Source of the DNA: Deltaproteobacteria bacterium
Lineage (GTDB): Bacteria; Myxococcota_A; Polyangia; Nannocystales; Nannocystaceae
Length of the DNA: 64,000 bases
Reading direction: 5' to 3'
Assembly (NCBI GenBank): GCA_016709225.1
Contig: JADJEE010000012.1
Coordinates: forward strand, 2,179,630 to 2,243,629
A model generated the notes under the pieces. The model saw only the letters and a program-made list of their open reading frames with translations, made no database searches and was not told the origin of the DNA. This document shows, piece by piece, positions 44,064 to 61,986 of the stretch (position 1 is the stretch's first letter; each line of letters opens with the position of its first letter). The position numbers and the translations under genes were made by a program.

Positions 44064-45434
44064 CATTTGGTCGAGCTCCCCGACACGCATGAGGGTCTGC
44101 CGCCCGGTCCCGGCGGCCTGCCGTGGAGCGGCCTCGCGCTGCTGCGCGACCCGCTCGGCAACCTGACGCAGGCCCACGCGCGCTACGGCGATGCGATGAC
44201 GTTCCGCGTCGGCCCGCTGCGCTTCGTCGCGGTGGCCGACCCCGCGCTCGCGCAGCACGTGCTGGTTCGCAACCATCGCAACTACGTCAAGAGTCGCAGC
44301 TACGCGGGACTCCGACTGGTGCTCGGCAACGGCCTGGTCACCAGCGAGGGCGAGGTGTGGCGACGGCAACGCAAGCTCGCGCAGCCGGCATTCCACCGCC
44401 AGCGCCTCGCCCGTCTCGCCGAGACCATGGCGACCTGCGTCGACGAGCGCATGGGCGAGTGGGCCGCCCGCAGCGACACCGCGATCGACATCCACGGCGA
44501 GATGATGCAGCTGACGCTGCGCATCGTCGCCCGCACGCTCTTCGGCACCGACCTCGCGGCCGACGGCGGCGACGTGCTGGCGCAGCTCGGCCCCGCCGTC
44601 ACCGAGGCCCTGCACAAAGCCGAGCAGTATGCAGAGTCGTTGATCCGCTTGCCGCTGTGGCTGCCGACCAGCTCCAACCGCCGCTTCGCCAAGGCCAAGA
44701 AGCTGCTCGACGGCATCGTGCACGGCATCATCGAACGCCGCCGCAGCGGCGGCGAGGCCCACGACGACGTGCTCGGCATGCTCATGTCTGCGACCGACGA
44801 GCACGACGGCGGCGGCATGGACGACGCACAGCTGCGCGACGAGGTGATGACGTTGTTCATGGCGGGGCACGAGACCATCGCGACCGCGAGCACATGGACG
44901 CTGCTGCTGCTGCACCAACACCCGGAGATCGCTGCGCGCGTGCGCGACGAGGCCCGCAGCGTGCTCGCGGGCCGCCCCCCGAGCTTCGACGACCTGCCGC
45001 GACTGCCGTACCTCGGCCAGGTCATCGACGAGTCGATGCGTCTCTACCCGCCGGTGTGGATCGTCGAGCGCCAGGCGCTCGCGGAGGATCAGCTGGGCCC
45101 GTGGCGCATCCCCAAGGACACCATCGTCGGGGTGTCGCCGTGGCTGATGCATCGCCACCCTGGGCTGTGGGACGAGCCGCTGCGCTTCGACCCCGATCGC
45201 TTCGCACCCGAGCGCCTGCAGGAGCGCGCCAAGCTGGCCTACCTCCCCTTCGGCGCCGGCCCGCGGATCTGCATCGGCAACCACTTCGCGCTGATGGAGG
45301 CCAAGATCATCCTCGCGACGATCGTGCAGCGTTGGTCGATCTCGGTCGACGCGCCAGAGGCGGTGCGCTTCGATCCCAGCGTCACGCTGCGCCCAGCCGG
45401 CGGCTTGCCGGGTCGGCTGCACGCGCTGGCATGA
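44049..45434 (+). CDS. Cytochrome P450
   Basis: Heme-thiolate loop FGAGPRICIGNHFA, ExxR (ESMR), I-helix AGHETIA. Start may instead be the ATG at 44040. Confidence 0.9.
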   Translation: MRTPSHLVELPDTHEGLPPGPGGLPWSGLALLRDPLGNLTQAHARYGDAMTFRVGPLRFVAVADPALAQHVLVRNHRNYVKSRSYAGLRLVLGNGLVTSEGEVWRRQRKLAQPAFHRQRLARLAETMATCVDERMGEWAARSDTAIDIHGEMMQLTLRIVARTLFGTDLAADGGDVLAQLGPAVTEALHKAEQYAESLIRLPLWLPTSSNRRFAKAKKLLDGIVHGIIERRRSGGEAHDDVLGMLMSATDEHDGGGMDDAQLRDEVMTLFMAGHETIATASTWTLLLLHQHPEIAARVRDEARSVLAGRPPSFDDLPRLPYLGQVIDESMRLYPPVWIVERQALAEDQLGPWRIPKDTIVGVSPWLMHRHPGLWDEPLRFDPDRFAPERLQERAKLAYLPFGAGPRICIGNHFALMEAKIILATIVQRWSISVDAPEAVRFDPSVTLRPAGGLPGRLHALA

Positions 45435-45487
45435 ACCCGCGCGCGCCGGCGAGACCGGCGCGCAAGCGGCCGTGAACCGAGCGCGTG

Positions 45488-45955
45488 CTACTCGAGCAGG
45501 CTCCGCAGCATCCACGCGGTCTTCTCGTGCACCTGCATGCGCTGCGTGAGCAGATCGCAGGTGGGCTGGTCGTTGGCGTCGGCCGCGGTCTGGAAGATCT
45601 CGCGGGCGGTGCGAGCCACGGTCTCGTGACCGTCGACCAGGCGACGAATCATGTCCTGCGCCTTGGGCACGCCGTCGTCCTCCTGGATCGCCGACAGCTT
45701 GGCGAACTGCGCGTAGGTGCCGGGCGCCGGCAGTCCGAGCGCACGGATGCGCTCCGCCACGAGGTCCACCGCGAGCGCGAGCTCGTTGTAGTGGGTCTCG
45801 AACATCAGATGCAGGGTCTGGAACATCGGGCCGGTGACGTTCCAGTGGAAGTTGTGGGTCTTGAGGTAGAGCGTGTACGTGTCCGCCAACACGCGCGCGA
45901 GGCCGTTGGCGATGGTCTCGCGCTTGGCCGCGTCGATGCCGATGTCGATGTTCAT
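45488..45955 (-). CDS. dps: Dps (DNA starvation/stationary phase protection) ferritin-like protein
   Basis: Full-length Dps signature: …[52 protein letters not shown]…. Confidence 0.9.
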
Positions 45956-46009
45956 CGTGATCCTCCGGTGGGGTGTCCGATCTACCGCATTTTCGCGGCG
46001 ATCTGACGC

Positions 46010-47026
46010 TCAATAGCTGTGCTCGTCGAGCTTCACCTTGCCGCGGAACACCCAATAGACGATGACCGTGTAGGTCGCGACCAGTGGCATGCCGACCACC
46101 GCGATGACGAGCATGCGCCCGAGCGTGCCTTCGGAGGCGGCCGCGCGGTGGATCTCGAGGCTATGGGCCGCATCGATGCTCGAGTGCACGAGGTTCGGCG
46201 CCAACGCCACCGCGACGAGGCCCGTCAGCGCCGCGATCGTGCAGCACGACGACACGAACGCCGAGCCGGCGCGGCCCCGGTGGATTGCGCGGGGAATGTT
46301 GGCGATTGCGAGCACGTGCAGGACCACGAGGATCCACGCGACCGGCCAGCGCGAGAGCCCTGCGGTCGCGTGGGGGATCCCCAGCACCGCGCTGAGCGAC
46401 ACCGCCAGCCATGCGGCCAGGAACGCGACGAAGCTGCGCCACATCCAACCCACGGTGCGGCGCTGCAGTGCGCCCTCGGTCTTCAGGTGCAGGTAGATGC
46501 TGCCGTGCATCGCCGCGGTCGCGAGCGCGAGCACGCCGACCAGCAGCGGGAACGGCCGCACGAGATCGCCGAGTGTACCGACGAACTCTCGATCGGCGCC
46601 GATCGGTACCCCCTGCACCACGTTGCCGAGCAGCACGCCACCGACGAATGTCACCGTCGCGCTCGATGCGAAGAACGACGCGTCCCACCAGCGGCGCCAT
46701 CCTCGACGATCGACCTTGCTGCGGAACTCCAGCGAGATCGCGCGACCGATCAACGCGAACAGGATCACCATCACCGGCAGGTAGAAGCCGGAGAACAGCG
46801 TCGCGTAGGCCTCGGGGAAGGCCCCGAACAGCGCGCCGCCGAAGGTCACCAGCCACACCTCGTTGCCGTCCCACAGCGGCCCGATGCTGTTGAGCGCGAG
46901 CCGGCGCTCTTGCTCGTCGCGCAAGAACACGTGCAGGATGCCGACCCCGAAGTCGAAGCCGTCGAGGATCGCGTAGCCCATCAGCAGCACGCCGACGAGC
47001 GCGAACCACACCCACGCGAGATCCAT
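46010..47026 (-). CDS. cydB: Cytochrome bd ubiquinol oxidase subunit II
   Basis: Collinear with E. coli CydB (…GYAILDGFDFGVG…NSIGPLWDGNEVWLVTFGGALFGAFPEAYATLFSGFY…). GGAGG RBS. No cydA on either side. Confidence 0.9.
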   Translation of the reverse strand: MDLAWVWFALVGVLLMGYAILDGFDFGVGILHVFLRDEQERRLALNSIGPLWDGNEVWLVTFGGALFGAFPEAYATLFSGFYLPVMVILFALIGRAISLEFRSKVDRRGWRRWWDASFFASSATVTFVGGVLLGNVVQGVPIGADREFVGTLGDLVRPFPLLVGVLALATAAMHGSIYLHLKTEGALQRRTVGWMWRSFVAFLAAWLAVSLSAVLGIPHATAGLSRWPVAWILVVLHVLAIANIPRAIHRGRAGSAFVSSCCTIAALTGLVAVALAPNLVHSSIDAAHSLEIHRAAASEGTLGRMLVIAVVGMPLVATYTVIVYWVFRGKVKLDEHSY

Positions 47027-47062
47027 CAGGCACGCCTCCGGCCGGCGTGCGCGGTGCGTGGG

Positions 47063-47578
47063 CTAGACGCGGTTCCAGATCGCGAATTGATCCTCGACAT
47101 CGGACAGCGGCATCGCCATGGTCGCGTAGCCGTCACCGAAGTAGATCACGTCGCAGACGAGATTGCAGCCGTTCGACTCGCAGTCCCCCGCCAGGGCGCA
47201 GGAGAGCTCGAGCTCCCAGCCCGCGCAGTCGAGCGGGGTCCACGGGGTCTCGCCGTCGGCCGCGGGCGCACGCGCAGCGTTGCTCACGAGCCGCGCCTCG
47301 GCGCAGGTCAGGGACAGCGACAGCTCACCGTTGCCGCGGTGGAGCTCGCCCTCGACCTCGTAGTTGATGCCGTAGGTCTGCACGCCGCCGACGAACTCGA
47401 CCTCGCCGAGCGTGCCCTCGAGGTCGTCTCGCAGCAGCATCACCGGGGCGCCCTGCGGCGCATCGGAGTCCCAGCCGCCGGCGAACCGGGTGGCCGTGAC
47501 CCCTTGATCGCTGCTGTCGGATCCCTGGCAGCTCGGCATCGCAGCCGCGATCGCGAGGAGGAGTGTGGCTCGGCGCAT
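47063..47578 (-). CDS. Small cysteine-containing lipoprotein/secreted protein
   Basis: MRRATLLLAIAAAMPSCQGSD… signal peptide; 171 aa, 9 Cys. The N-terminal 214 aa of the track ORF are Arg-rich junk. Confidence 0.45.
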   Translation of the reverse strand: MRRATLLLAIAAAMPSCQGSDSSDQGVTATRFAGGWDSDAPQGAPVMLLRDDLEGTLGEVEFVGGVQTYGINYEVEGELHRGNGELSLSLTCAEARLVSNAARAPAADGETPWTPLDCAGWELELSCALAGDCESNGCNLVCDVIYFGDGYATMAMPLSDVEDQFAIWNRV

Positions 47579-47718
47579 GGTCGTGATCCCGCGCCCGAGA
47601 GATCGGCGCGCAGCCCGGGATATCGCGGGGCCGCCATGGCCGGCAAATTCCCGGCGGATCCGGGCGGCTACGCCGCAGGCGACGTACGAGCCGTGCACGT
47701 CGCCTGCGGGCGGGGACT

Positions 47719-49749
47719 TCACGGCCGCTGTTCGGCCGCGAGCACCTCGGCGAGCTGCCGCTCGGCCTTGCCGTCGGGCATCGACATCACGCCGATCGAC
47801 ACCTCCGGCGGCTCCGGCAGCGGGGACATGGGGTCGACGTCGCCACCACCCTCGGAGCACATGCAGTCGAACCCACCTGCCCTGGCGAGTAGCGCGGTCT
47901 CCGGGCACATCGCATCGACACGCGCGAGATCCCCGAGCGGCGGGCCGCCCCACGTGTTGGTGCTCGAGCACCCACAGTCGTCGTCCATGAACTGCCCGAG
48001 CGGACACGTCACGGGGGTCTTGCACTCGCTCCCGGTCGGTGCACCGCCGCCGAACTCCCCGCACATCTCGTCGGCGGCCGTCGAGTCGTGGTCGTCGGGC
48101 ACGGGATGCGACTTGCGCGGATCCTCGCCGGGCTTGCGCTTGAACAACGCATCGAAGAACGCTCCGCGGTCGGCAAACCCATCCTTGGTCAGCACGCCCA
48201 TGCTGAGGAGCTCCTGACACGCGGGGTTCTTCGGATCGAAGCCCCCGGGCTCGAGGCCGCCCGCCGCGTCACCGCCGTCGGCTGCACCCGTGGCCTCACC
48301 TTCGTCACCCTCGCCACCGGTATCGCCACCACTGGCGCTCGTCGTGGTGCTGCTGCTCGACGTCGTGGTGCTGCTGCTCGTGGTGCTGCTGCTCGACGTC
48401 GTGGTGCTGCTGCTCGACGTCGTGGTGCTGCTGCTCGACGTGCTGCTGGTCGTTCCGCTGCTGCCGGGGCAACCGCTGACGCACACGGGGTCGCCCGCCG
48501 CGTTGTTCTCACACTTTGCGCCCGGCTGATAGCACCCCGCCTCCCGCGCACGATCGATGTAGTCCATCCCGGTCGTCACCAGCTCGACCGCTTCGATCCA
48601 TTTCTTCACCGCGTAGACGATCCCCTGTTGACCAGGGTTGGTGATCCAGCCCGACCCCGGGATCCAGCCCGTCGGATTGAGGGCCGGGCCGTCGGCGAGC
48701 GGATTTCCCTCATCCGTCGCAAGGCACTCCTGCATGGACGTCAGCAAGCCCATGCCGTCGGCGATCTCCTGCGCCATGCTCGCGGAGCAATCGTCTTCGG
48801 TGAATCCATCGAGCGGGCTGGTGCTACCCGACATCGCACCTCCGCTGGCGCGATTGTCACAATAGTCGCTCAGCCACGAGATCTCGTCTTCGCTGAAGCC
48901 ATAGCTTCCCTGGAGTTCGTCTTGCAGCGGCGTCGCCCCGCCGGGCATCTTGCCGCCGCTCTCGGCGGCGAGCTGCTCGCACATTTCCTCGATCGTTCCC
49001 CAGCCGCCGGGCGTACCCGTGGCCGCACAGCTTCCGCCGGCAACGATGGAGGCCGGCGCAAGCACACCGCTCTTGTACGTCGGCCCCGCCAGGTCGCAGA
49101 GCGCGTCATTGACGAGCACGTCGCCCATGATCGTCGCAAGATCACTGCGTGCGATCACGTCGGCGTCGAGGCCGATCATCTGCTCCACCACCACGCGCGC
49201 AGCGGCTCCTCGAATCGCTCGCTCGGCGAGGTCGTTCCGGTACGCGACCCGGACGTGGACGCTGGGCGCAGGCTCGTCGGCGAACCACACGACATCACGC
49301 ATGCGATTGGCGTTGGCCGCCGACACCGCGACCACGGCGGGATCACGCGACCATGCGGTGCAATCCTGGTAGCTGAGCAGCAGACCTTCGAGCCCATCGG
49401 CGCCCGCCTCTGCGACGTACTCGAGGAGGTCGTCTTGACGCACGGCGCACTCATCGGGCGTCAGGTAGCGCAGCACTGCGAGTTCTGCACGCGTCACACG
49501 GGCGTACGCCTTGCCGTCGCGAATCGCGTACGAGTGTTGAATTGCGGAGAACATCTCGCCTCCCGCGTAGCCCGTGCCACTGACCCACTCGGAATGGCGA
49601 GAGCGGAACTCCGCGAGCGCCGAGTTCGCGTTCACCGGATTCTCGGCAGCGTTGGCCTGCGGCACGAAGTACGTGGAATCCGGTAGCTGCCCGACGGCGG
49701 CGACCAGCAATGGCGTGGCGATGCATGCGGTGATGAATGTGCGCTTCAT
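47719..49749 (-). CDS. Secreted multi-domain protein with poly-Ser/Thr linker and Cys-rich C-terminal region
   Basis: Signal peptide MKRTFITACIATPLLVAAVG. N-terminal globular domain, then (S4T3)n linker, Gly/Asp/Glu-rich acidic stretch, and a C-rich C-terminus (…CKTPVTCPLGQFMDDDCGCSS…CMCSEGG). Confidence 0.6.
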   Translation of the reverse strand: MKRTFITACIATPLLVAAVGQLPDSTYFVPQANAAENPVNANSALAEFRSRHSEWVSGTGYAGGEMFSAIQHSYAIRDGKAYARVTRAELAVLRYLTPDECAVRQDDLLEYVAEAGADGLEGLLLSYQDCTAWSRDPAVVAVSAANANRMRDVVWFADEPAPSVHVRVAYRNDLAERAIRGAAARVVVEQMIGLDADVIARSDLATIMGDVLVNDALCDLAGPTYKSGVLAPASIVAGGSCAATGTPGGWGTIEEMCEQLAAESGGKMPGGATPLQDELQGSYGFSEDEISWLSDYCDNRASGGAMSGSTSPLDGFTEDDCSASMAQEIADGMGLLTSMQECLATDEGNPLADGPALNPTGWIPGSGWITNPGQQGIVYAVKKWIEAVELVTTGMDYIDRAREAGCYQPGAKCENNAAGDPVCVSGCPGSSGTTSSTSSSSTTTSSSSTTTSSSSTTSSSTTTSSSSTTTSASGGDTGGEGDEGEATGAADGGDAAGGLEPGGFDPKNPACQELLSMGVLTKDGFADRGAFFDALFKRKPGEDPRKSHPVPDDHDSTAADEMCGEFGGGAPTGSECKTPVTCPLGQFMDDDCGCSSTNTWGGPPLGDLARVDAMCPETALLARAGGFDCMCSEGGGDVDPMSPLPEPPEVSIGVMSMPDGKAERQLAEVLAAEQRP
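48340..48450. repeat. Tandem 21-bp coding repeats (cgtcgtggtgctgctgctcga x ~5) encoding the poly-Ser/Thr linker
   Basis: Near-perfect copies at 48340, 48361, 48397 and 48418, plus a 15-bp partial copy. They translate on the - strand to SSSTTTS repeats. Confidence 0.6.
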
Positions 49750-49890
49750 GGCAGCGCCCGATTCATCAAGTTGCGTGCCAACCCGAACGCAACGCCGTCA
49801 TCGTGGATTCATGTGAGGCGCTCGCACGACGCGTCGTGAGCCGCACAGCGGGACAGGTGCCGGTGTCCCCGGTGTCACCAGGGCGACGCC

Positions 49891-51057
49891 TCAGGCGACG
49901 TACGCCACGATCGACTCGATGGTCCGGCTCGCGCGACTCGCCGGCGTGATGCGCACCAACAGATCGCGGGCCCAGCACGCGAGCGGTGACTCCCACTGTG
50001 CGATTGCACCGAGGCGACGGGCGCCGCGCTGGATGTCGTCGACGCGTGCGCGCCGGCGCTGCGCCCAGGCATGGAAGGCATCGGCGGCGCGCACGTGGGC
50101 GACCAGCTCGCGGGCGAGCACGACGGCGTCCTCGATCGCCATCGCGGCGCCTTGCCCGAAGTTCGGCGTCATCGCGTGGGCGGCATCACCGATGAGCCCG
50201 ACCGGGCCGTCGTGCCAGCGCGGCAGCTCGATCTCTTCGATGTCGTGGTGCAGCAATCGCTGCTGGCCGTCACCCATCGCGGCGGCGACGGCGGTGAACG
50301 GCCCCCCGAAGGCCGCGAAGCGCTCGCGTACGCTCGCAACCGTCGCAGCCCCGTGCTCGCCGGCGGTGCCGCGGGGCGCGTTGGCGACCATGAACGCGTA
50401 GACCTGCTCGCCGACGAGCGGCACCAAGCCGACGCGCTTGCCCTCGCCCCACATCTCGACGGCGCGCTCGAGCCCGCCCGCGACGGCGCCGGTCCAACGC
50501 CAGCAGGTGTAGCCGGCGTAGCGCGGCTCGATCGCACCGAACGCCAGCGCACGCACGGCCGAACGGACACCGTCGGCACCGATCATCGCGCGGTGCTGTC
50601 CGGTCACGCCGTCACTGCGCACCACCTCGACGCCGGTCGGGGTCGACACGAAGTCGCGCACGGTCGTGCCGCAGGTGACGCGCACGCGCGCGCCGTGGAG
50701 ATCGCCGGCGTGCTCGAGGCCCTGCGCGAGGACTTCGTGGAGATCGCCGCGGTGGATCGCATACGCGTCGCCGTGTCGCGCCGCGATGCCGGCGAGGTCG
50801 GTCATCGACAGCACGCGGCCGCTCGCATCGGTGATCGCCGCAACCCCCATCGCGCGACCACGCGCGGCCACGGCCGCACCGACGCCGATGCCCGCGAGCG
50901 CCCGCATGGCGTTGGCCCCGAGCGTGATGCCAGCTCCCTCGGCGCGCAGGCTCGGCGAACGCTCGAGCAGATCCACGTCGATACCCTCCTGCGCCAACGC
51001 GCGCGCCAACACCAGGCCGGCGATGCCACCACCGACGATCAGAACGGACTGTCTCAT
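49891..51057 (-). CDS. FAD-dependent monooxygenase (aromatic-ring hydroxylase, UbiH/salicylate hydroxylase-like)
   Basis: Start MRQSVLIVGGGIAGLVLARALAQEG (GxGxxG FAD fold), DG motif (GADGVRSAVR), C-terminal GD motif (LIGDAAHAMTPNFGQGAAMAIEDA). Confidence 0.85.
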   Translation of the reverse strand: MRQSVLIVGGGIAGLVLARALAQEGIDVDLLERSPSLRAEGAGITLGANAMRALAGIGVGAAVAARGRAMGVAAITDASGRVLSMTDLAGIAARHGDAYAIHRGDLHEVLAQGLEHAGDLHGARVRVTCGTTVRDFVSTPTGVEVVRSDGVTGQHRAMIGADGVRSAVRALAFGAIEPRYAGYTCWRWTGAVAGGLERAVEMWGEGKRVGLVPLVGEQVYAFMVANAPRGTAGEHGAATVASVRERFAAFGGPFTAVAAAMGDGQQRLLHHDIEEIELPRWHDGPVGLIGDAAHAMTPNFGQGAAMAIEDAVVLARELVAHVRAADAFHAWAQRRRARVDDIQRGARRLGAIAQWESPLACWARDLLVRITPASRASRTIESIVAYVA

Positions 51058-51077
51058 CTGGACTTCACTCCCTCGCG

Positions 51078-51107
51078 ACCAAGCCACCTGCGCGGCGTCG
51101 GCTTGGT
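51078..51107. promoter_or_regulatory. Candidate TetR operator: inverted repeat ACCAAGCC-N14-GGCTTGGT
   Basis: gaccaagccacctgcgcggcgtcggcttggtt has 8-9-bp perfect arms and lies in the 90-bp divergent region between the monooxygenase and TetR genes. Confidence 0.45.
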
Positions 51108-51147
51108 TATGATGCGAGCGCCGCGATTGCGGCACTCGCAACTGCGC

Positions 51148-51768
51148 ATGGCCGTCGACCCTCGCAAGTCCCCGAAACAACGGCGTTCTCGGGTCACCAT
51201 CGACGTGATCCTCGAGGCCACGGCTCGCATCGTCGGGCAGGTCGGGCTCGATCGCGCGACCACCAATCGCATCGCGGAGGTCGCGGGCGTGAGCATCGGC
51301 TCGCTGTATCAGTACTTCCCCGGCAAGGAGGCACTGCTCGCCGCGCTGATCGAGCGCGAGGCGAGCGCAGACCTCGAGGCCCTGCGCGTGCACTTCGAGG
51401 CCAGCGCTTCGTTGCCGCTGGCGGTCGCCATCGATCGCGCGTGCGAGGAGCTCGTGGCCCGGCACGCGCGCAACCCGGGGCTGTACCGATGGATGCTCAC
51501 CTACGTGCCCGCGCTCGGACAACACGCGAAGATCCGCGCCATCGCGGCGCAGGGGCGCGCGCTGCTGCGGGACATGCTCGGACGCCGTCGCGGCGAGCTC
51601 GATCGCGAGCTCGAGCCGGCACTCGCCGCGATGATCCTCGGCAGCGCGATCGAGGCCGCGGTGCACACCGCGATCTTCGAGCGCCCCGAGACCCTCGGTG
51701 ACGGCACCCTCGCGCGCGAGCTCGGCCGGCTCTGCCGTGGCTACCTCGGGGTGTCGTCCGACGATTGA
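51148..51768 (+). CDS. TetR/AcrR family transcriptional regulator
   Basis: HTH ILEATARIVGQVGLDRATTNRIAEVAGVSIGSLYQYFPGKEALL. Start at MAVDPRKSPKQRRS. Confidence 0.8.
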   Translation: MAVDPRKSPKQRRSRVTIDVILEATARIVGQVGLDRATTNRIAEVAGVSIGSLYQYFPGKEALLAALIEREASADLEALRVHFEASASLPLAVAIDRACEELVARHARNPGLYRWMLTYVPALGQHAKIRAIAAQGRALLRDMLGRRRGELDRELEPALAAMILGSAIEAAVHTAIFERPETLGDGTLARELGRLCRGYLGVSSDD

Positions 51769-51892
51769 CACCAGCGGTGCAGGTCACCGCTGGCCAGGCG
51801 GCGAACGAAGCTGACGCAAACACTGCCAACCGTGAGGGGGCGCTCCGGTTTCGTCAGGCATCCGGGTTCCCAGGCACTACACTCATCGAGTC

Positions 51893-53026
51893 GTGCGTGG
51901 GTCCGTCGCTACCATCGCCTTCGCGAGCACTGCGTCGTTCGCCTGTGCAGACGCGCGCCCACGCGTTGCCACCGACGACACGGTCGCGCCCGATCCTGCC
52001 GTACCCCGGCTGGTCCGTGCGACGCCACGGCGAGCGTTCCCGACCGATGGGCTCGACATCGTGATCGCCCGCGATCGCATGCTGCTGGGTGACGTGCGGG
52101 TCGCGAAGATCGTCGCGGGGCGCGTCGCGGCCGACGAGGTCGAGCACCATCGTGTCGCTGCGCTGGCGCAGCAGCTCCGTGATGCCCCACCGACGGTGCC
52201 CGTGGTGATCCGCGCCGACGAGCTCACGCGCTTCGGTGCGGTGATCGACGCGATGTACACCGCCCACGGTGATGGCCGCGACGAGTTCGCCATCGCCGTG
52301 GCACCCGTGAACGCCGATGGCGTGGCCGGTGTCATCAGCGTGATTCCGTCGCGGACGTGGGACCACGACATCGACGAGGGCGTGCACGACCTCGTGTGTT
52401 TCACGGTGGCACGCGTCGCCGACGCCACGGTCGAGCTCGAGGTGTGCGGCGAAGCGCCGAGCCGTTTCGCGCTCGATGACGCCGAAGGCATGCGCGGTCA
52501 CCTCACAGGTCCCGGCTGGAACCACCACGTGCGGGTGGTCGCCGATGCGGACGCGCAGTGGTCGAGCATCGTACGCGTCATCGATGCCCTCGGTGGTCCG
52601 CCGTGGGACCACGATGCCATCGACGCGCGCACGATTCGCCCGCACTACATCGTGCTCGACCTCGATCCGCGGATCCCGTGGCGCGCAGGCCGATGGGATC
52701 AGCTGCGCGTGCGGCTCGCGGACATCGAGCTGATCGAGTACGCCGATCGCCGCCGCGATCGCGCAGCGCTCGAGACACGGGCCACCGCCATGATCCCCGC
52801 GCTCGAGCGCTGTCTACGGGGCTCCGACGAGCTGCGATTGCGCGTGCCCGACCGCATCACGATCGTCCTGGCGACCCATCCCGAGCTGGGCGACGTCGCG
52901 TTCACGGCCGATCGCAGCGCGCCCGCGTGCGTCGCGACGCTGGTGGCCCCGCTCGCCCCGCGCATCGTCGAAGTGGTGCCCGGCGACGCCGAGCTACACT
53001 TCGCGATCGACGTGCCCCCCGAGTGA
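51893..53026 (+). CDS. Hypothetical secreted protein
   Basis: GTG start with signal-like N-terminus (VATIAFASTASFACA). No recognisable domain. Normal composition. Confidence 0.45.
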   Translation: MRGSVATIAFASTASFACADARPRVATDDTVAPDPAVPRLVRATPRRAFPTDGLDIVIARDRMLLGDVRVAKIVAGRVAADEVEHHRVAALAQQLRDAPPTVPVVIRADELTRFGAVIDAMYTAHGDGRDEFAIAVAPVNADGVAGVISVIPSRTWDHDIDEGVHDLVCFTVARVADATVELEVCGEAPSRFALDDAEGMRGHLTGPGWNHHVRVVADADAQWSSIVRVIDALGGPPWDHDAIDARTIRPHYIVLDLDPRIPWRAGRWDQLRVRLADIELIEYADRRRDRAALETRATAMIPALERCLRGSDELRLRVPDRITIVLATHPELGDVAFTADRSAPACVATLVAPLAPRIVEVVPGDAELHFAIDVPPE

Positions 53027-53048
53027 CCTCCGCCCGAGGCGCCTCCGA

Positions 53049-53444
53049 TCAGAACCAGTAGTCCGCCACGCAACGACCATCGCGCGGTAGGTCGTCGAAC
53101 GTGTCGAGCCCATCGAAGTGATCGATCGGGATGTGGCCGACCGCCTCGGGCGCCGCGAGTCGAAGATTGACGGCAAGGCGCCGGCGCCCCTCGCCGTCGA
53201 GCTCGCGCGCACGCCAGAAGCCCACGCATCCGCACGCTCGACAGAAGTGGAACTCGATCGCGCGGCCACGCACGTAGGCCTGCGTCTCGCCCTCCACCGC
53301 GACCCCCTCGCCCTCGAAGTCGTAGCCCCAGAGCGCGCCGTAACGCCGACACACGGTGCAGTTGCACGCCGTCGCGCCGTCGACCTCGGCCGTGAATCGC
53401 CAACGCACCGCGCCGCAGTGACAGCTCCCCTCGATCATCGCCAA
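53049..53444 (-). CDS. GFA family protein (glutathione-dependent formaldehyde-activating / CENP-V-like zinc protein)
   Basis: MIEGSCHCGAVRW…CNCTVC…FCRACG: the characteristic Cys pattern of the GFA/Mss4-like fold, 131 aa. Confidence 0.75.
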   Translation of the reverse strand: MAMIEGSCHCGAVRWRFTAEVDGATACNCTVCRRYGALWGYDFEGEGVAVEGETQAYVRGRAIEFHFCRACGCVGFWRARELDGEGRRRLAVNLRLAAPEAVGHIPIDHFDGLDTFDDLPRDGRCVADYWF

Positions 53445-53683
53445 TCCTCGTCCGCGACCGCGCGACGGCGCCGCGCCGGCACGCTAGCGCGCGGTCCTGT
53501 GCGAGTGCAACCGTCGGCGACGCGCCCCGGCTGGCTGGCTCAGAAGCGGATGCGAATGCCGCCCGGCCGAAGCGCGACACGTCGACCCGCTGCTCCGGCG
53601 AAGCTCGGTCGCCGCGATCGATGCGCCCCGAGGAACGACCCGGCGACGATCGTCCCGACGCCACGCGGGGTCGGCGTCGTGCG

Positions 53684-54724
53684 ATGCTCGGGCTCCGCAC
53701 CGTGCTCCACCTCGTCGACGTCGCCGATGCCCGATCCGCCGAGCGCTTCGTCGATCGTTTGCTCGTCGCGGGCATCGATTCGACGGTGCGCGAGGGTGCC
53801 GATGGTGGACGCGAGCTGTGGGTGGTCGACGACGATCGGCTCGAGGCCGCGCAAGCGGTGATCGCTCGCGACGACGACGACGAGCGCGAGACTCGGCGCA
53901 AGGCCAAGGCGCTGCGCGCCGAGCAGGCCGCGAGCCATCGCGATCATGCCAGCCGCTCGGTGGATCTCCGCAATCGTTGGCGCAGCGCCACCGGCACGGA
54001 GCTGTCGCCGCTGACGACGATGCTGGTGGTCGCGAGCGCGATGGTGGCGTGGTCGACCTCGCTGGGAGATCCTTCGACGCCGACGCTGCAGGCGCTGTCG
54101 ATCGAGCCATGGCTCTCGAGCGAGCGCTTTGGGCAGGTGATGCAGGGTGAGATCTGGCGGTTGTTGACGCCGATGTTCATCCACTTCGGCTTCTTCCACC
54201 TGCTGTTCAACATGTCGTGGGTGCTGACGTTCGGGCCGCAGATCGAGCGCAACCATGGCTTTGCGACCATGCTCGCGCTGGTGGTGCTGAGCGAGCTGGC
54301 GGGCTCGATCCCGCAGTACTACGCGACGGGACCGAGCTTCGGCGGCATGTCGGGCGTGGTCTATGGCCTGTTCGGGTTCGTGTGGATGCACGCACGCTTC
54401 GGGCCCTCGGGCCGCTATGTGCTCACCGATCGCGAGGCCGTGTTGTCGATCGTGTGGCTCGTCGCCTGCGGTAGCGGTTGGTTGGGCCCGATCGCGAACC
54501 TCGGGCACGCCGGCGGTCTCGTCGTCGGCCTGCTCATGGGCACGCCCGCGTATGTCCAGCACCTCCGCGCGCGCCGCAGCGGGCTCGCAGCGGTCGAGCA
54601 CAGCTGGGCCAACACCTACGGCACGCCGTGGCTGCGGTTCCGCCACCGCGTCATCGCGGGCTACGTGCCGCTGTGGCTGTTGTTGATCGCGATCGCCGTC
54701 GGCATCACGGACGTGCTGCGTTGA
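53684..54724 (+). CDS. Rhomboid family intramembrane serine protease with N-terminal cytoplasmic extension
   Basis: Catalytic GxSG in a TM (FGGMSGVVYGLFG), His in a later TM (LGHAGGLVVGL), 6-7 TM segments. ~130-aa soluble N-terminal domain. Confidence 0.8.
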   Translation: MLGLRTVLHLVDVADARSAERFVDRLLVAGIDSTVREGADGGRELWVVDDDRLEAAQAVIARDDDDERETRRKAKALRAEQAASHRDHASRSVDLRNRWRSATGTELSPLTTMLVVASAMVAWSTSLGDPSTPTLQALSIEPWLSSERFGQVMQGEIWRLLTPMFIHFGFFHLLFNMSWVLTFGPQIERNHGFATMLALVVLSELAGSIPQYYATGPSFGGMSGVVYGLFGFVWMHARFGPSGRYVLTDREAVLSIVWLVACGSGWLGPIANLGHAGGLVVGLLMGTPAYVQHLRARRSGLAAVEHSWANTYGTPWLRFRHRVIAGYVPLWLLLIAIAVGITDVLR

Positions 54725-54730
54725 CAGCCC

Positions 54731-55297
54731 TCATCCGCGATGCCACGCGGACGACAACAGGCCGTACACGTAGAAGTCGCGCCGCTGCCCGCGGCACACG
54801 CGGAAGCTCCGCAGGCAGCCCTCGCGCTCGAAGCCCAAGCGCTCGAGCAGACGCTGCGATCGAAGGTTGTCGTCCCGGACGTAGGCCTGCGCGCGATCGA
54901 TGCGATCGTGGGCGAAGGCCCACCCCAGCACCGCCGTTGCCGCTGCACCCATCAAGCCGCGGCCCCACTGCGGCTGCGCCAGATCGAACGCGACCTCGGC
55001 CCAGCGGTGGGCAGCCGAGTACTCGTTGAAGCCGCAGGTTCCGACGAGCACGTCGCCGTCCCGTACCACCAGGCCCCACTTCGATGGCTCCCCCGCGGCC
55101 CAGCGCGCGTGCGCCCTCGCGATGATCGCCTCCGCTAGCGACAGCGACGGCTCGGGATAGCTGGTCCGCTCGGTCACTGCGGGGTCGCGGAGATAGTCGA
55201 ACAGCGCCGCCGCGTCCGAGGCCCGCAGCGGGCGGAGCACCGCCGCTTCGAGCTCGAGCGTCGGCGCAACGTCCACTGCATCGACCACGAAAGCCAC
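54731..55297 (-). CDS. GNAT family N-acetyltransferase (RimJ/RimL-like)
   Basis: GTG start preceded by AGGGAG. …GTCGFNEYSAAHRWAEVAFDLAQPQWGRGLMGAAATAVLGWAF… acetyltransferase core. Confidence 0.7.
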   Translation of the reverse strand: MAFVVDAVDVAPTLELEAAVLRPLRASDAAALFDYLRDPAVTERTSYPEPSLSLAEAIIARAHARWAAGEPSKWGLVVRDGDVLVGTCGFNEYSAAHRWAEVAFDLAQPQWGRGLMGAAATAVLGWAFAHDRIDRAQAYVRDDNLRSQRLLERLGFEREGCLRSFRVCRGQRRDFYVYGLLSSAWHRG

Positions 55298-55416
55298 TCC
55301 CTCTCGCCGCCGGCAGCGGCAACACGAGCGTAGCCCGGCCGCCGCGGGCGTGACAACGATCAACGGGGGCACGAGGCCCGTGCGCACCGCTCGTTACTGC
55401 TACGCTCCGCGCCAAC

Positions 55417-56409
55417 ATGCGTGCCGCCGTGATCCACCGCTACGGCGGTCCCGAGGTGTTGTCGCTCGAAGATCGACCCGATCCGAGCGTCGGCGACGAC
55501 GACGTGCTCGTCGCCGTGCACGCGGCAAGCCTGAATCCCATCGACTACAAGCTGCGCGAGCGCAAGGCGTGGCCGCTGCTTCGCCCGCGCTTTCCGGTCG
55601 GCCTCGGCTGCGACGTCGCTGGGGTGGTGCTCGCCACCGGCTCGCGTGTCGAGGGCTTCGCGGTCGGCGACGAGATCTTCGCGCGACTCGAGAAGGACCG
55701 CATGGGCGGCCTGGCCGAGCGCGTGGCGGCGAACGCCACCGTCGTGGCGCGCAAGCCCACGCGTTGCGACTTCGTGCAGGCGGCCTCGATCCCGCTCGCG
55801 GGGCTCACCGCCGTGCAGGCGCTGCGCGAGCACGCCGCGCTACAGCCGGGGCAACGGGTATTGATCCACGCGGGTGCCGGTGGGGTGGGCTCGCTCGCGA
55901 TCCAGATCGCCAAGCTGCTCGGAGCGCACGTGCTCACCACCTGCAGCGAGCGCAACCGAGAGCTCGTGACCGAGCTCGGCGCCGACGAGGTCATCGACTA
56001 CACCCGCGAGGACGTCGCCGCACGCGCGAAGGACGTCGACGTCGTGTTCGACACGCTCGGCGACGCCTCCGAGGTACGCTCTCTCGGCATCGTGCGGCCG
56101 GGGGGCGTGGTGGTGGGCGTGAGCGGCATGCCCGATCCCGACTTCCCGCCGCTGCCGTGGTTCGCGCGGCCCATCGTTCGTTGGCGCACGCGCGCGCGTC
56201 GGAACGCCGCCACTGCGCGCGGTAGCCGATTCGCATATCTGTTCATGCGTCCCGACGGTCGGCAGCTCGCCGAGCTCGCCGCGTGGATCGACGAGGGCCG
56301 AGTGCGACCGATCATCGACCGCGTGTTCCCGCTCGCCGACGTGCGCGAGGCGTTCGCGGAGCTCGAGCGCGGACGCGCGCGCGGCAAGATCGTCGTCACG
56401 ATCGCGTGA
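55417..56409 (+). CDS. NADPH:quinone oxidoreductase / zinc-type alcohol dehydrogenase (MDR superfamily)
   Basis: MRAAVIHRYGGPEVL…, Rossmann fold LIHAGAGGVGSLAIQIAK, C-terminal …RGRARGKIVVTIA. Confidence 0.85.
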   Translation: MRAAVIHRYGGPEVLSLEDRPDPSVGDDDVLVAVHAASLNPIDYKLRERKAWPLLRPRFPVGLGCDVAGVVLATGSRVEGFAVGDEIFARLEKDRMGGLAERVAANATVVARKPTRCDFVQAASIPLAGLTAVQALREHAALQPGQRVLIHAGAGGVGSLAIQIAKLLGAHVLTTCSERNRELVTELGADEVIDYTREDVAARAKDVDVVFDTLGDASEVRSLGIVRPGGVVVGVSGMPDPDFPPLPWFARPIVRWRTRARRNAATARGSRFAYLFMRPDGRQLAELAAWIDEGRVRPIIDRVFPLADVREAFAELERGRARGKIVVTIA

Positions 56410-56570
56410 CGTGCGGTCAGGCGTACGGCGGCCTGCACCGGCTCGGGCCGCGCCGCCAACATCGCCCAAGTCGCGGGGACGCTCGCAGCCTACACTGGTG
56501 GTCCTTGCAAGCCACCGACGACCGACGATGCCTGCGCTTCTGGCAACCCGACACGCGCGCCGTGATCGGC

Positions 56571-57362
56571 ATGCTGCGGCTCGAGCACGAGGACCGCATC
56601 AAGACCACCTGCGCGGAGCACTTCTCGGTCGTCGTGGTCTACGAAGGTGCGTTCGATGGCTGGTACGGTGGCAGCGTGCAAACCCACGTACCGGGTGCGC
56701 TCAAGCTCAAGGAACCCGGCGAGGTCCACCGCGGCGTGCGGGTGCACGCCCCCTTCACCCTGCAGGGCGCCGCGATCGCAGCCGAGCAGATCGCAGCAGC
56801 CGCCGACGCGCTCGGCGTGCGTGGAGCCCCTCACTTCCGCGCCCACGGCTTCGCCCCCGACACGCGCGCCGCCGGGTTCGCTCGCGCGATGCACGAGGCG
56901 CTGACCTCGGCGCGCGCGACCGAGCTCGAGCGCGCCACCCTGGTCGCCGAGACCCTGGCCGAGATCGTCGGCCGACGACGCATGCGACGATCGCTCCGCG
57001 CCGTGCAGCGTGCCCGCGCCTACCTGCGCGAGACCCTGAGCGAGCGCATCACGCTCGACGCGCTCGCCGAGCACGCCGCGCTCGACAAGTTTCATCTCGC
57101 CCGTGCGTTTCGCAGCGAGGTCGGCCTACCGCCCTACGAGTACCTCACGCACTTGCGCGTCGATCGTGCGCGCGAGCTGCTGCGAAACGGTGCGCGCGTC
57201 GCCGAGGTCGCCCACGCGGTCGGGTTCTACGACGAGAGCCAGCTGCACCGACACTTCCGTCGCATCATCGGGGTTGCTCCCGGCGCGTATGCGCGCAGCT
57301 TCGGGAGATCGCGAGCGCGCCGCCAACATCGCCCAAGCCCCGCGCGCGTGCCCGGCGAATGA
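56571..57362 (+). CDS. AraC family transcriptional regulator
   Basis: C-terminal dual HTH (…ITLDALAEHAALDKFHLARAFRSEVGLPPYEYLTHLRVDRARELL…VAEVAHAVGFYDESQLHRHFRRIIGVAPGAYAR). N-terminal start uncertain (ATG 56571 or GTG ~56559). Confidence 0.7.
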   Translation: MLRLEHEDRIKTTCAEHFSVVVVYEGAFDGWYGGSVQTHVPGALKLKEPGEVHRGVRVHAPFTLQGAAIAAEQIAAAADALGVRGAPHFRAHGFAPDTRAAGFARAMHEALTSARATELERATLVAETLAEIVGRRRMRRSLRAVQRARAYLRETLSERITLDALAEHAALDKFHLARAFRSEVGLPPYEYLTHLRVDRARELLRNGARVAEVAHAVGFYDESQLHRHFRRIIGVAPGAYARSFGRSRARRQHRPSPARVPGE

Positions 57363-57371
57363 TCCGATCCA

Positions 57372-58276
57372 TGACCGATCGAGACCACCATGCCCACCCG
57401 CCGGCGACCATCCGACTCGGCGACCTCGAGGTTGCGCGCATGGGCTACGGCGCGATGCGCCTGCCCGGCAAGGACGTGTGGGGCGAGCCCGATGATCCCG
57501 CGCGGGCGCGTGCGGTGCTACGTCGCGCCGTCGAGCTCGGCGTCGAGCTCATCGACACTGCGTGGTTCTACGGGCCGCTGGTCGCCAATCGCCTGATCGC
57601 CCAGGCGCTGCGCCCGTATCCGAGCAATCTGGTGATCGCGACCAAGCTCGGCGGCAAGCGCCTGCCCGACAAGGGCTGGGCACCGGCGCTGCGCCCCGAG
57701 GAGCTGCGCAAGGGCGCCGAGGACGACCTGCGATCGCTGGGCGTCGAGCGGCTCGACGTCGTGCACCTGCGCCACATGCCCGGCGCCGGCGTGCCGCTGA
57801 TGGAGTCGCTCGATGTCCTCGTCGCGCTGCAGGCAGAGGGCAAGATCCGCCACCTCGCGCTCAGCAACGTCGGCGCACGCGAACTCGAGCAAGCACTCGC
57901 GCGCACGCCCATCGTCGCGGTGCAGAACCTCTACAATGTCGGCGGCGGCGACGGACCGATGGCGCGCCAGGCCCACGCCGTGGTCGAAGATCCCGAGGGC
58001 GTGCTCGAGCTGTGTACACGCAAGGGCATCGCGTTCCTGCCGTTCTTCCCGCTCGCGGTCGGCAACATCGCGAGCGAGCGAACCGCCCTCGCGGCCATCG
58101 CCGAGCGCCACCGGGCCAGCCCCGCTCAGATCGCGCTCGCGTGGCTGCTGGCGCGCTCGCCCGTCATGCTGCCGATCCCCGGCACATCCTCGCTCGCGCA
58201 CCTCGAGGAGAACTGGGCCGCGCGCCGCATCGCGCTGACGCCCGACGACGTCGCAGCGCTCGCGGCCGAGGGTTGA
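57372..58276 (+). CDS. Aldo/keto reductase
   Basis: …LIDTAWFYG…, …NLVIATKLG…, …ALSNVG…AVQNLYN…, C-terminal IPGTSSLAHLEEN: AKR catalytic-tetrad context. The AraC stop overlaps an alternative ATG at 57360. Confidence 0.85.
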
Positions 58277-58364
58277 CCAGGGCGCTTCGCGCCACGCGCC
58301 GGCGAGCGCGACCGCCACGCGTGTCGGCGGCGCGAGGCCGGATCGGCCCCGTTGGGGTGGCGCG

Positions 58365-58940
58365 CTAGGGTCCGCACTGCGGTGGCATCGTGCAGTTGCG
58401 CGTCGCGAACTTCCGATCGGCACCGGCCGGCAGCAAGAAGCCGAGCGTGTAGCCGATCGGCATCGGCTGCGGGTCACCCGGGCACGGCGAGCGCATGCGT
58501 TCGATGAACGTCACCGTCGCGCCATCGTCGACGATGATCGTGCCGGCGCCGGCGGGGGACAGCGTGCGGTCCTCCACCATCAGCTGCAGCTTGCCGAAGT
58601 CGATGCCGCTCGCCACGCCGCGCGGGCACGAGAATCGCTTCGCGAATGCGGCCTCGCTGGCGATGGTGCCCAGGCCAGCAGGTCCACTGCGTCCGGTACA
58701 CTCGGTGGGCGCGGCCCACGGTTTCAGCGGCCTCGCGGCCGAGAGCCCCAGCAGGGACGGCGAGCACGGGTCGATGGCCTTGGGCTGTGCCTTCGTTTCG
58801 ACCTTCGTCGCTGCCTCGAGCGCGGCGTCGAGCTCGTGCTTCGGTGGCGGCTGTCGCTCGGGCTTCTCGTCCGGTCGTGAGGAGCACGCGAGCAGCGTGG
58901 TGAGAGCGACGGCGATCCTTCGCGCGTGGGTGCGTCCCAT
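58365..58940 (-). CDS. Hypothetical lipoprotein
   Basis: MGRTHARRIAVALTTLLACSS (lipobox LLAC); 191 aa, 6 Cys. No domain recognised. Confidence 0.5.
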   Translation of the reverse strand: MGRTHARRIAVALTTLLACSSRPDEKPERQPPPKHELDAALEAATKVETKAQPKAIDPCSPSLLGLSAARPLKPWAAPTECTGRSGPAGLGTIASEAAFAKRFSCPRGVASGIDFGKLQLMVEDRTLSPAGAGTIIVDDGATVTFIERMRSPCPGDPQPMPIGYTLGFLLPAGADRKFATRNCTMPPQCGP

Positions 58941-59033
58941 CGCGCGCGAGCATACTCGCTCGCGCGCGGATCTGGCGACGTTGGGGACTCGACGAACCGC
59001 CTGTTCGACGGGCCGGCGCGCCCGGGCACAGCG

Positions 59034-59648: not shown

Positions 59649-59719
59649 GGCACGACGCTAGCAAAGTCGGCGCGCCGATGGCCACCGCGCCGGCCGACGT
59701 GCTAGATGCGACGACAATC

Positions 59720-61547: not shown

Positions 61548-61590
61548 TCGCGGGCCCGCTGCCCGCATCACCGCCGCCCGCGGCGTCGCG

Positions 61591-61986
61591 CTACCAGTCG
61601 CCCAGCTTCTCGAGGACGCCTCGTCGCTTGACGATGTTCTTGTAGTCCCACTGGATCGTCTTCGCCTTGCGCAGGCATCGCTTCACGACACGAGCATCGA
61701 GCTGCGCGAGGTCAGCGAAGCGCAGCTCGGCGGCCTTGAACTTGCCCTCGGCGTGCAGCGCCGGCTCGTCGAACGACTGACCGCTCCAGAACAGCAGCTG
61801 CACGTCCTTCTTCCGCACCCAGTAGCCGACCACGGGGTTGTCGGCGAGAAACCAGACCGGACCTCCGTGCCAGAGCTTGCTCTGTGCGCGGGTGAGCCCT
61901 GCGTCGATCAACGCCGCGAGCGCGTCGCAGATCGCTCGGGCGTCGTCGGTTTGCGCGGCGTTGTAGGCTTCGATGTCCGAGTGCAT
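61591..61986 (-). CDS. DUF1801 (YdhG-like) domain protein
   Basis: 131 aa; MHSDIEAYNAAQTDDARAICDALAALIDAGL…WHGGPVWFLADNPVVGYWVRKKDVQLLFWSGQSF… is typical of the YdhG/DUF1801 fold. Confidence 0.6.
   Translation of the reverse strand: MHSDIEAYNAAQTDDARAICDALAALIDAGLTRAQSKLWHGGPVWFLADNPVVGYWVRKKDVQLLFWSGQSFDEPALHAEGKFKAAELRFADLAQLDARVVKRCLRKAKTIQWDYKNIVKRRGVLEKLGDW

What the first reader, a model, noticed from the sequence alone, without database searches (positions are those of the whole stretch)
45488..47578. cydB (cytochrome bd subunit II) present without an adjacent cydA
A full-length CydB with a GGAGG RBS is flanked downstream by dps and upstream (36-nt gap) by a small Cys-containing lipoprotein gene. 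No CydA-like 9-TM ORF is present on either strand within several kb. Subunit II alone is not functional in known bd oxidases, so either cydA is elsewhere (unusual split) or this CydB homologue has been recruited to another role. The Dps neighbour hints at an oxidative-stress context.
Basis: partly seen in the sequence, partly recalled or inferred. Interest (0 to 1): 0.5.

Follow-up and report, generated by a model that had tools for sequence, protein, structure and literature searches.

The report
Cytochrome bd genes split apart
The lone cytochrome bd subunit II gene (cydB) is real and intact, and its partner cydA appears to lie about 38 genes upstream in the same myxobacterial genome, so this is an ordinary oxidase whose two-gene operon has been pulled apart.

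Summary
A full-length cydB lies at 46010-47026 on the minus strand (Pfam PF02322 E 2.6e-98; it passes the NCBIfam cydB equivalog cutoff). A Dps gene follows it after 54 nt. A 171-aa lipoprotein gene precedes it by 36 nt. No cydA is found anywhere in the 64 kb.

cydA does exist in this genome. Protein accessions and locus tags of the source MAG, and of two sister MAGs, put an intact cydA 37-38 genes away on the same multi-megabase contig. It is co-oriented with cydB and upstream of it. That cydA keeps the ancestral neighbours seen in the nearest relative, where cydA and cydB overlap. Here a cysteine-rich lipoprotein gene follows cydA instead of cydB.

CydA and CydB show parallel divergence from relatives (79% and 78% identity to the same operon). 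Both are under purifying selection since the split (dN/dS 0.08 and 0.09). All key residues are kept.

Among the related lineages examined, all 79 GTDB loci that could be judged (of 80) and all 5 close metagenomic relatives have cydB directly after cydA, so the split is unusual. The biology looks canonical: a short-Q-loop bd quinol oxidase whose subunits are made from separate transcripts. A new role for CydB is not supported. The link to Dps is specific to this lineage and untested.

The parts
46010..47026 (-). cydB, cytochrome bd quinol oxidase subunit II (338 aa), intact and separated from cydA
   Evidence: PF02322 over the full profile, E 2.6e-98. TIGR00203 256.8 bits against a 117.3 cutoff. 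78% identical to the CydB of a canonical cydAB operon (P0002). 113 of 116 conserved columns kept. dN/dS 0.092 against L007.
47027..47062 (-). 36-nt spacer carrying the GGAGG RBS and the TGATG motif. In relatives TGATG is the 1-nt overlap of the cydA stop with the cydB start, so the last ~20 nt look like a relic of the cydA 3' end.
   Evidence: Sequence read. DNA homology to canonical operons starts 5-16 nt upstream of the ATG. Junction sequences and alignment. No significant RNA structure (z 0.02).
47063..47578 (-). 171-aa cysteine-containing lipoprotein gene of unknown function, probably co-transcribed with cydB
   Evidence: No Pfam or NCBIfam hit. Cys17 is invariant after the signal peptide. 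13 synonymous and 0 non-synonymous differences against L007. Only two distant homologue clusters exist, and neither is near cyd genes.
45488..45955 (-). dps (155 aa), 54 nt downstream of cydB on the same strand
   Evidence: PF00210 E 4.5e-28. NCBIfam Dps models hit but below their cutoffs. NCBI names the identical protein 'DNA starvation/stationary phase protection protein'. The hairpin between cydB and dps is only weak (z -1.9).
47675..47707 (-). 13-bp stem-loop just after the stop codon of the 676-aa gene. Candidate terminator marking the upstream end of a lipo171-cydB-dps transcription unit.
   Evidence: RNA fold of 47579-47718: -83.4 kcal/mol, z -3.9, 0 of 200 shuffles fold as well. No U-tract, so the consensus terminator scan missed it.
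45420..45487 (-). Strong GC-rich hairpin between the convergent dps and P450 genes. Candidate bidirectional terminator closing the unit.
   Evidence: -47.3 kcal/mol, z -4.7, 0 of 200 shuffles fold as well.
47063..64000 (.). The visible 17 kb of the ~38-gene block that separates cydB from cydA. cydA itself lies beyond coordinate 64000, inferred to be on the minus strand. The block carries ordinary genes and no integrase, transposase or phage genes.
   Evidence: Pfam hits: FAD monooxygenase, TetR, GFA, rhomboid, GNAT, Zn-ADH, AraC, aldo-keto reductase, methyltransferase, Sel1, DUF1801. Codon-position GC is like the rest of the window. Accession and locus-tag arithmetic.

Best explanation
This cydB is the cognate subunit II of a canonical short-Q-loop cytochrome bd quinol:O2 oxidoreductase whose operon has been split. 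In the ancestor, as in the nearest relatives, cydA and cydB overlapped by one base (TGATG). In this Nannocystaceae-like lineage a block of about 37 genes now lies between them. I estimate its length at roughly 40 kb from gene density; the DNA read directly shows only that it is at least 27 kb. The breakpoint falls in the last ~10 codons of cydA. cydA stayed with its old upstream neighbours (Cu-monooxygenase, glyoxalase, Ser/Thr kinase, asparaginase) and acquired a new stop codon. cydB kept its start codon and RBS and now sits behind a small lipoprotein gene and in front of dps.

Shown: the split, the intactness of both genes, their parallel divergence, and purifying selection on both. Inferred: the two subunits are made from separate transcripts (cydB probably in a lipo171-cydB-dps unit bracketed by two strong hairpins) and assemble in the membrane into a normal bd oxidase.
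For: 1. Location of cydA. It is in the same MAGs, 37-38 genes from cydB. In the window's MAG, cydB is MBK6922491.1, lipo171 is MBK6922492.1 (IPH07_34195), the 389-aa protein is MBK6922528.1 (IPH07_34375), cydA is MBK6922529.1 and asparaginase is MBK6922530.1. The longest contig reported for each is 3,673,469 bp. The spacing is the same in MBK8235231/269, and 37 genes in MBK8716450/413. The gene order implies that cydA and cydB are co-oriented with cydA upstream.
2. Direct DNA. In GCA_020050275.1, whose cydB locus is nucleotide-identical to the window, the cydA contig (L100) shows Cu-monooxygenase, glyoxalase, kinase, asparaginase and cydA in synteny with the canonical operon L002. The synteny ends about 20 nt before the cydA stop. 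A 424-aa Cys-rich protein gene follows, and 10 kb downstream there is neither cydB nor overlap with the window.
3. Cognate partners. CydA and CydB are 79% and 78% identical to L002, 75% and 75% to L095, and 73% and 69% to L006. Spearman rho is 0.73 over 80 loci.
4. Both genes maintained since the split. cydB has 22 synonymous and 6 non-synonymous differences (dN/dS 0.092). cydA has 34 and 9 (dN/dS 0.084).
5. Residues. CydA keeps H19, E99, E107, H186, K252, E257, M393 and E445. CydB keeps 113 of 116 conserved columns and is no more diverged than the CydB of the canonical operon (p-distance to outgroups 0.360 against 0.382).
6. Precedent. The E. coli bd-I subunit CydH/CydY (ynhF) is encoded outside the cyd operon, so a bd subunit can be supplied from a distant locus (PMC8951039).
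Against: - I did not read the DNA joining cydA to cydB. Same-contig linkage and the 38-gene distance rest on accession and locus-tag numbering plus identical 'longest contig' values. By DNA I can show only that the separation is at least 27 kb.
- No expression or assembly data exist.
- Only about 24-27 kb of the intervening block was inspected, so a mobile element in the unseen part is not excluded.
- A second, divergent cydAB elsewhere in the genome was not searched for.
- The selection estimates rest on few substitutions, and L007 is a contig with about 1x coverage.
Confidence: 0.8

Rival explanations
1. CydB has been recruited to a CydA-independent role, for example a membrane partner of the lipoprotein or part of a Dps-linked oxidative-stress module.
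For: New genomic context: a 36-nt gap to lipo171, a 54-nt gap to dps, and hairpins bracketing the three genes. lipo171 is strongly constrained (13 synonymous, 0 non-synonymous differences).
Against: CydB shows no accelerated or altered evolution and keeps the family's conserved columns. Its divergence tracks that of the distant CydA. That CydA has no other cydB next to it. lipo171 homologues in other genomes lie between a DEAD helicase gene and dus, unrelated to cyd genes. dps lies within 10 kb of cydAB in only 2 of 80 related loci.
Confidence: 0.05
2. The split inactivated the oxidase, and both genes are relics on the way to decay.
For: Operon disruption often precedes gene loss. cydA lost its last ~9 codons and gained a new C-terminus.
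Against: Both ORFs are intact in every assembly seen. dN/dS is 0.08-0.09 for both genes between lineages that already share the split, similar to the neighbouring asparaginase at 0.066. The heme and quinol-site residues are retained. The CydA C-terminal tail is variable among relatives anyway.
Confidence: 0.07
3. This cydB is a spare duplicate, the genome has another complete cydAB, and the cydA found here pairs with a different subunit II.
For: Myxobacterial genomes are large and often carry several terminal oxidases (general knowledge). I did not scan the whole proteome.
Against: The only cydA close to this clade in these MAGs has no cydB beside it. Its nearest relative belongs to the same operon (L002) as the nearest relative of this cydB. 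The top 120 CydB hits list only one cluster known to come from this organism, P0001, which holds the window's own protein.
Confidence: 0.05
4. Mis-assembly or a chimeric contig created an apparent orphan.
For: The source is a metagenome-assembled genome.
Against: The identical arrangement occurs in at least seven independent assemblies from different projects and technologies. One diverged allele (97.5% nt identity) has the same junction. Three long-contig MAGs show the same 37-38 gene spacing.
Confidence: 0.02

Closest known systems
Canonical cydAB operons of the short-Q-loop bd oxidase clade in Myxococcota (nearest: Nannocystaceae MAG GCA_019694555.1, locus L002)
   Same: CydB is 78% and CydA 79% identical. 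The five genes upstream of cydA are the same. The TGATG stop/start motif is retained in front of cydB.
   Different: In L002 and in the other relatives examined, cydB starts at the cydA stop codon: all 79 of the 80 GTDB loci that could be judged, plus 5 close metagenomic relatives. Here about 37 genes intervene, and cydB has new neighbours (lipo171, dps).
Structurally solved bd oxidases: M. smegmatis (7d5i), M. tuberculosis (7nkz), E. coli bd-I (6rko) and bd-II (7ose)
   Same: CydB aligns over its full length with these subunit II chains (E 1e-60 to 2e-50). The partner CydA keeps the E. coli heme ligands and the Q-loop residues K252 and E257.
   Different: The Q-loop is short, unlike the long Q-loop of E. 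coli. No CydX or CydS gene is evident: the 54-nt gap after cydB leaves no room. The subunit genes are unlinked.
E. coli CydH/CydY (ynhF), a bd-I subunit encoded outside the cyd operon
   Same: It is a precedent that a bd oxidase subunit can be encoded at a distant locus and still assemble (PMC8951039).
   Different: That is a 3-kDa accessory helix. Here it is the core subunit II.
Archaeal CydAA' and the OR-C/OR-N families (cydA without cydB)
   Same: They are cases where the cydA-cydB pairing is broken (bioRxiv 10.1101/2021.01.16.426971).
   Different: In those, cydB is replaced by a cydA paralogue or is absent. Here a bona fide cydB is kept and only relocated. The gene after cydA encodes a secreted Cys-rich lipoprotein, not a CydA paralogue.

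Membership tests
Cytochrome bd oxidase subunit II (CydB; Pfam PF02322, NCBIfam TIGR00203) | Full-length match to the family models above the curated cutoffs | tested here: met
   PF02322 329.6 bits against a 35.6 cutoff, profile positions 2-302 of 302. TIGR00203 256.8 bits against 117.3.
Cytochrome bd oxidase subunit II (CydB; Pfam PF02322, NCBIfam TIGR00203) | Retention of the clade's conserved residues and multi-pass membrane topology | tested here: met
   113 of 116 columns that are at least 95% conserved are kept. The 3 changes are conservative and within the control range (mean 1.75, maximum 8). A crude hydropathy scan finds 7 strongly hydrophobic segments. It aligns end to end with solved CydB chains.
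Cytochrome bd oxidase subunit II (CydB; Pfam PF02322, NCBIfam TIGR00203) | A cognate CydA with heme ligands and a quinol site encoded in the same genome | tested here: met
   CydA is MBK6922529.1, numbered with the window's MAG. The 481-aa sequence from GCA_020050275.1 (L100) has the H19, E99, H186, M393, E445, K252 and E257 equivalents. Linkage to the window rests on accession numbering, not on reading continuous DNA.
Cytochrome bd oxidase subunit II (CydB; Pfam PF02322, NCBIfam TIGR00203) | Typical organisation: cydB immediately downstream of cydA in one operon (usual, but not defining for the protein family) | tested here: not met
   No cydA in the 64 kb. cydA is 37-38 genes away. All 79 of 80 related GTDB loci that could be judged have the adjacent arrangement.
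Cytochrome bd oxidase subunit II (CydB; Pfam PF02322, NCBIfam TIGR00203) | Assembly with CydA into an active quinol oxidase containing hemes b558, b595 and d | not testable with these tools
   Needs expression, spectroscopy and activity assays.
Dps (ferritin-like DNA-protection protein) | Ferritin-like four-helix domain with the Dps ferroxidase motif | tested here: inconclusive
   PF00210 98.4 bits against a 24.5 cutoff. The NCBIfam Dps equivalogs hit below their cutoffs (79 bits against 114). His/Asp/Glu positions resembling the Dps ferroxidase site (FHWNV...LHLMFE...DLVAER) are visible in the translation, but I did not align them to a reference Dps.
Bacterial lipoprotein (the 171-aa protein) | Signal peptide ending in a lipobox with an invariant Cys | tested here: inconclusive
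   The N-terminus is MRRATLLLAIAAAMPSC. Cys17 is invariant in the 4 homologues, two of which carry more canonical VTAC and CAAC lipoboxes. No dedicated lipoprotein predictor was available.

The most novel reading that the evidence does not exclude
Uncoupling cydB from cydA is adaptive. cydB, together with dps and a small lipoprotein, forms a separately regulated (for example stress- or stationary-phase-induced) unit. Supply of subunit II would then become the control point for assembling active bd oxidase, a regulatory design not described for this enzyme.
Probability: 0.1. Interest if true: 0.45.

Novelty: new member of a known kind. Interest (0 to 1): 0.2.

Why it matters
The result is mainly practical. 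An orphan cydB could be read as a pseudogene, a novel function or an incomplete pathway. Here it is none of these. Genome-based metabolic reconstructions that require adjacent cydAB would wrongly score this widespread activated-sludge myxobacterium as lacking a bd oxidase.

It is also a natural experiment. It suggests that the two core subunits need not be translationally coupled, because both stay under purifying selection after separation. If cydB regulation turns out to be tied to dps, that would be a modest new angle on the role of bd oxidase in stress protection.

Tried and rejected
- tblastn of E. coli CydX against the window found nothing (best E 1.1), and the 54-nt gap after cydB leaves no room for a small subunit gene.
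I used it instead as a baseline for cydA-cydB adjacency.
- Exact look-ups of the NCBI-annotated CydA (P0256) and of the 676-aa protein (P0133) failed. I therefore could not read record coordinates on the 3.67-Mb contig or bridge the gap directly.
- I tested whether lipo171, the 676-aa protein, the 377-aa ORF and the Cys-rich protein after cydA are paralogues, which would hint at duplication-mediated rearrangement. They show no similarity.
- I looked for shared genes downstream of cydB between the window and its relatives, and found none. This leaves simple insertion and a more complex rearrangement both possible.
- The consensus promoter and terminator scan found nothing. RNA folding found two strong hairpins.
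- lipo171 function: there are no family hits. The AlphaFold model is weak (pLDDT 60.6). Foldseek against the PDB gave no significant match (best E 0.03, TM 0.35). The afdb50 library was unavailable.
- Literature searches for orphan or split cydB found no description of such an arrangement.
- Foreign origin of the visible part of the intervening block was rejected on composition and gene content.

Full report
**What is in the window.** The window is about 70% G+C throughout. It encodes exactly the proteins NCBI lists for a metagenome-assembled 'Deltaproteobacteria bacterium' with IPH07_ locus tags. Sister MAGs are labelled Nannocystaceae. On the minus strand lie, in order:
- a 676-aa secreted protein with no family hit (47719-49749);
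- a 171-aa lipoprotein gene (47063-47578);
- a 36-nt spacer with GGAGG;
- cydB (46010-47026, 338 aa);
- a 54-nt spacer;
- dps (45488-45955).

A convergent P450 gene follows. cydB matches Pfam Cyt_bd_oxida_II over the full profile (E 2.6e-98). It passes the NCBIfam cydB equivalog cutoff (256.8 against 117.3 bits). It aligns end to end with subunit II of the solved mycobacterial and E. coli enzymes.

**No cydA in 64 kb.** I found no cydA by three routes. tblastn with E. coli CydA gave best E 0.44. tblastn with the CydA proteins of the two nearest relatives gave best E 1.5. Pfam scans of all sizeable ORFs gave no PF01654 hit. The same gene order recurs in at least seven independent assemblies, so it is not an assembly artefact.

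**How unusual the split is.**
- The closest CydB homologues with readable context (78%, 75%, 74% and 69% identity) all sit directly after cydA, overlapping its stop codon. L005's cydA carries one frameshift, in a 3x long-read assembly.
- A scan of GTDB species representatives with the related CydA returned 80 loci. In 79 of them cydB follows cydA directly. The 80th contig ends 60 bases after cydA.
- dps lies within 10 kb in only 2 of the 80 loci.

**Where cydA is.** A search with the CydA of the nearest relative found a 79%-identical CydA cluster, P0138. On ENA contig L014 that gene follows a kinase gene and an asparaginase gene, as in the canonical relative L002. What comes after it is a 420-aa Cys- and Ser/Thr-rich lipoprotein gene, not cydB.

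The cluster members include NCBI proteins numbered in series with the window's genes:
- In the window's MAG, dps, cydB, lipo171 and the 676-aa protein are MBK6922490 to MBK6922493 (lipo171 is IPH07_34195). The 389-aa lipoprotein is MBK6922528 (IPH07_34375), CydA is MBK6922529 and asparaginase is MBK6922530. The longest contig reported for each is 3,673,469 bp.
- Two further MAGs show the same spacing: MBK8235231 against MBK8235269, and MBK8716450 against MBK8716413.
- Locus-tag steps equal accession steps, so 37 genes lie between cydA and cydB.

The gene order is asparaginase, cydA, Cys-rich protein ... 676-aa protein, lipo171, cydB, dps. L014 and L100 are collinear over the cydA end of this order. 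Together these imply that cydA and cydB are on the same strand with cydA upstream.

Direct DNA evidence comes from GCA_020050275.1, whose cydB locus is nucleotide-identical to the window. Its cydA contig (L100) carries Cu-monooxygenase, glyoxalase, kinase, asparaginase and cydA in synteny with L002. The 10 kb downstream of cydA holds neither cydB nor any overlap with the window. The separation is therefore at least 27 kb by sequence. From gene density I estimate about 40 kb; I did not read the joining DNA.

**The breakpoint.**
- Homology between the split lineage and L002 ends about 20 nt before the new cydA stop codon.
- Homology on the cydB side begins 5-16 nt before the ATG.
- The window still carries ...CCGGAGG...TGATGGATCT. 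This is the RBS plus the stop/start overlap seen at the cydA-cydB junction of relatives.

The simplest reading is one break inside the variable C-terminal tail of cydA. The visible 17 kb of the intervening block and about 10 kb at its cydA end carry ordinary metabolic and regulatory genes. Their codon composition is native, and no integrase, transposase or phage genes were seen. Insertion and multi-step rearrangement cannot be told apart, because the flanks downstream of cydB are not conserved among relatives.

**Whether the split enzyme is maintained.**
- The distant CydA keeps the equivalents of H19, E99, E107, H186, K252, E257, M393 and E445, and has a short Q-loop.
- CydB keeps 113 of 116 columns that are at least 95% conserved. 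Its mean distance to outgroups (0.360) is no larger than that of the operon-encoded P0002 (0.382).
- The identities of CydA and CydB to the pairs in relatives run in parallel: 79/78, 75/75, 76/74 and 73/69, with rho 0.73 over 80 loci. This marks them as the original partners.
- Between alleles that both already have the split, cydB shows 22 synonymous and 6 non-synonymous changes (dN/dS 0.092).
- cydA shows 34 synonymous and 9 non-synonymous changes (dN/dS 0.084). The asparaginase control gives 0.066.

These numbers are small, and L007 is a contig with about 1x coverage. Sequencing errors would inflate dN rather than deflate it.

**Likely expression.**
- A 13-bp stem-loop follows the stop of the 676-aa gene (47675-47707; region z -3.9).
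- A very strong hairpin lies between dps and the convergent P450 gene (45420-45487; z -4.7).
- The lipo171-cydB spacer is unstructured, and the cydB-dps spacer has only a weak hairpin.

I infer a lipo171-cydB-dps transcription unit. No consensus promoter was found. This step is inference only.

**The neighbours.** lipo171 is a real, constrained gene (13 synonymous, 0 non-synonymous differences) with only two distant homologue clusters in 5.8 billion proteins. Those homologues lie between a DEAD-box helicase gene and dus, near lgt and lspA, and not near cyd genes. Its AlphaFold model is poor and matched nothing significantly. There is thus no sign of a conserved CydB-lipoprotein or CydB-Dps partnership.

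**Comparison with what is known.** Canonical bd oxidases need CydA and CydB, which are encoded together. The known departures are replacement of cydB by a cydA paralogue, or cydA families lacking cydB (bioRxiv 10.1101/2021.01.16.426971). A distantly encoded bd subunit is known only for the small CydH/CydY (PMC8951039). My literature searches found no report of a split cydA/cydB, but the library searched is limited.

**Verdict.** This is a standard bd oxidase with an unusual but mechanistically undemanding gene arrangement. Interest is low, about 0.2. The most novel reading still open is that separate regulation of cydB with dps controls oxidase assembly, which I put at roughly 10%.

Noticed in passing
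window 30741-33335 (minus strand): An 864-aa ORF matches the major vault protein shoulder domain (PF11978, E 2.3e-25) and a vault repeat (PF17795, E 1.1e-10). It is a bacterial homologue of the eukaryotic vault shell protein.
   Followed up: no
L014 5483-6745; L100 11433-12707 (outside the window): The gene that now follows cydA in place of cydB encodes a 420-424-aa lipoprotein with a long Ser/Thr/Gly-rich linker and 26 cysteines (counted in the L014 copy). It has no Pfam hit and no similarity to lipo171 or the 676-aa protein.
   Followed up: partly
window 47719-49749 (minus strand): A 676-aa secreted protein with a poly-Ser/Thr tract and 22 cysteines. It has no Pfam or NCBIfam hit, and its GC3 is slightly lower (0.83) than its neighbours.
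   Followed up: no
window 62276-64000 (plus strand, runs off the end): The ORF contains two repeats, DLDGAVDSSDLVTLF and GDFNADGVFDSSDLVALF, that look like dockerin or EF-hand-type calcium-binding repeats. It then has a Cys-rich region. No Pfam hit at E below 1e-4.
   Followed up: no
L096 10001-10501; L098 3568-4068: The only distant homologues of lipo171 sit in a conserved block between a DEAD-box helicase gene and dus. The block lies within 3-4 kb of lgt and two lspA (signal peptidase II) genes, which are lipoprotein-processing genes.
   Followed up: no
L005 6533-7943: In a 3x-coverage long-read contig, the cydA next to a 74%-identical cydB is split by one frameshift near 7702-7704. It could be a sequencing error or a real pseudogene.
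   Followed up: partly
window 36277-39678 (minus strand) and 39376-40026 (plus strand): A large Ser/Thr kinase gene lies beside an ECF sigma factor gene. It is 43% identical over 301 residues to the kinase that sits upstream of cydA in L014, and so looks like a paralogue of it.
   Followed up: no
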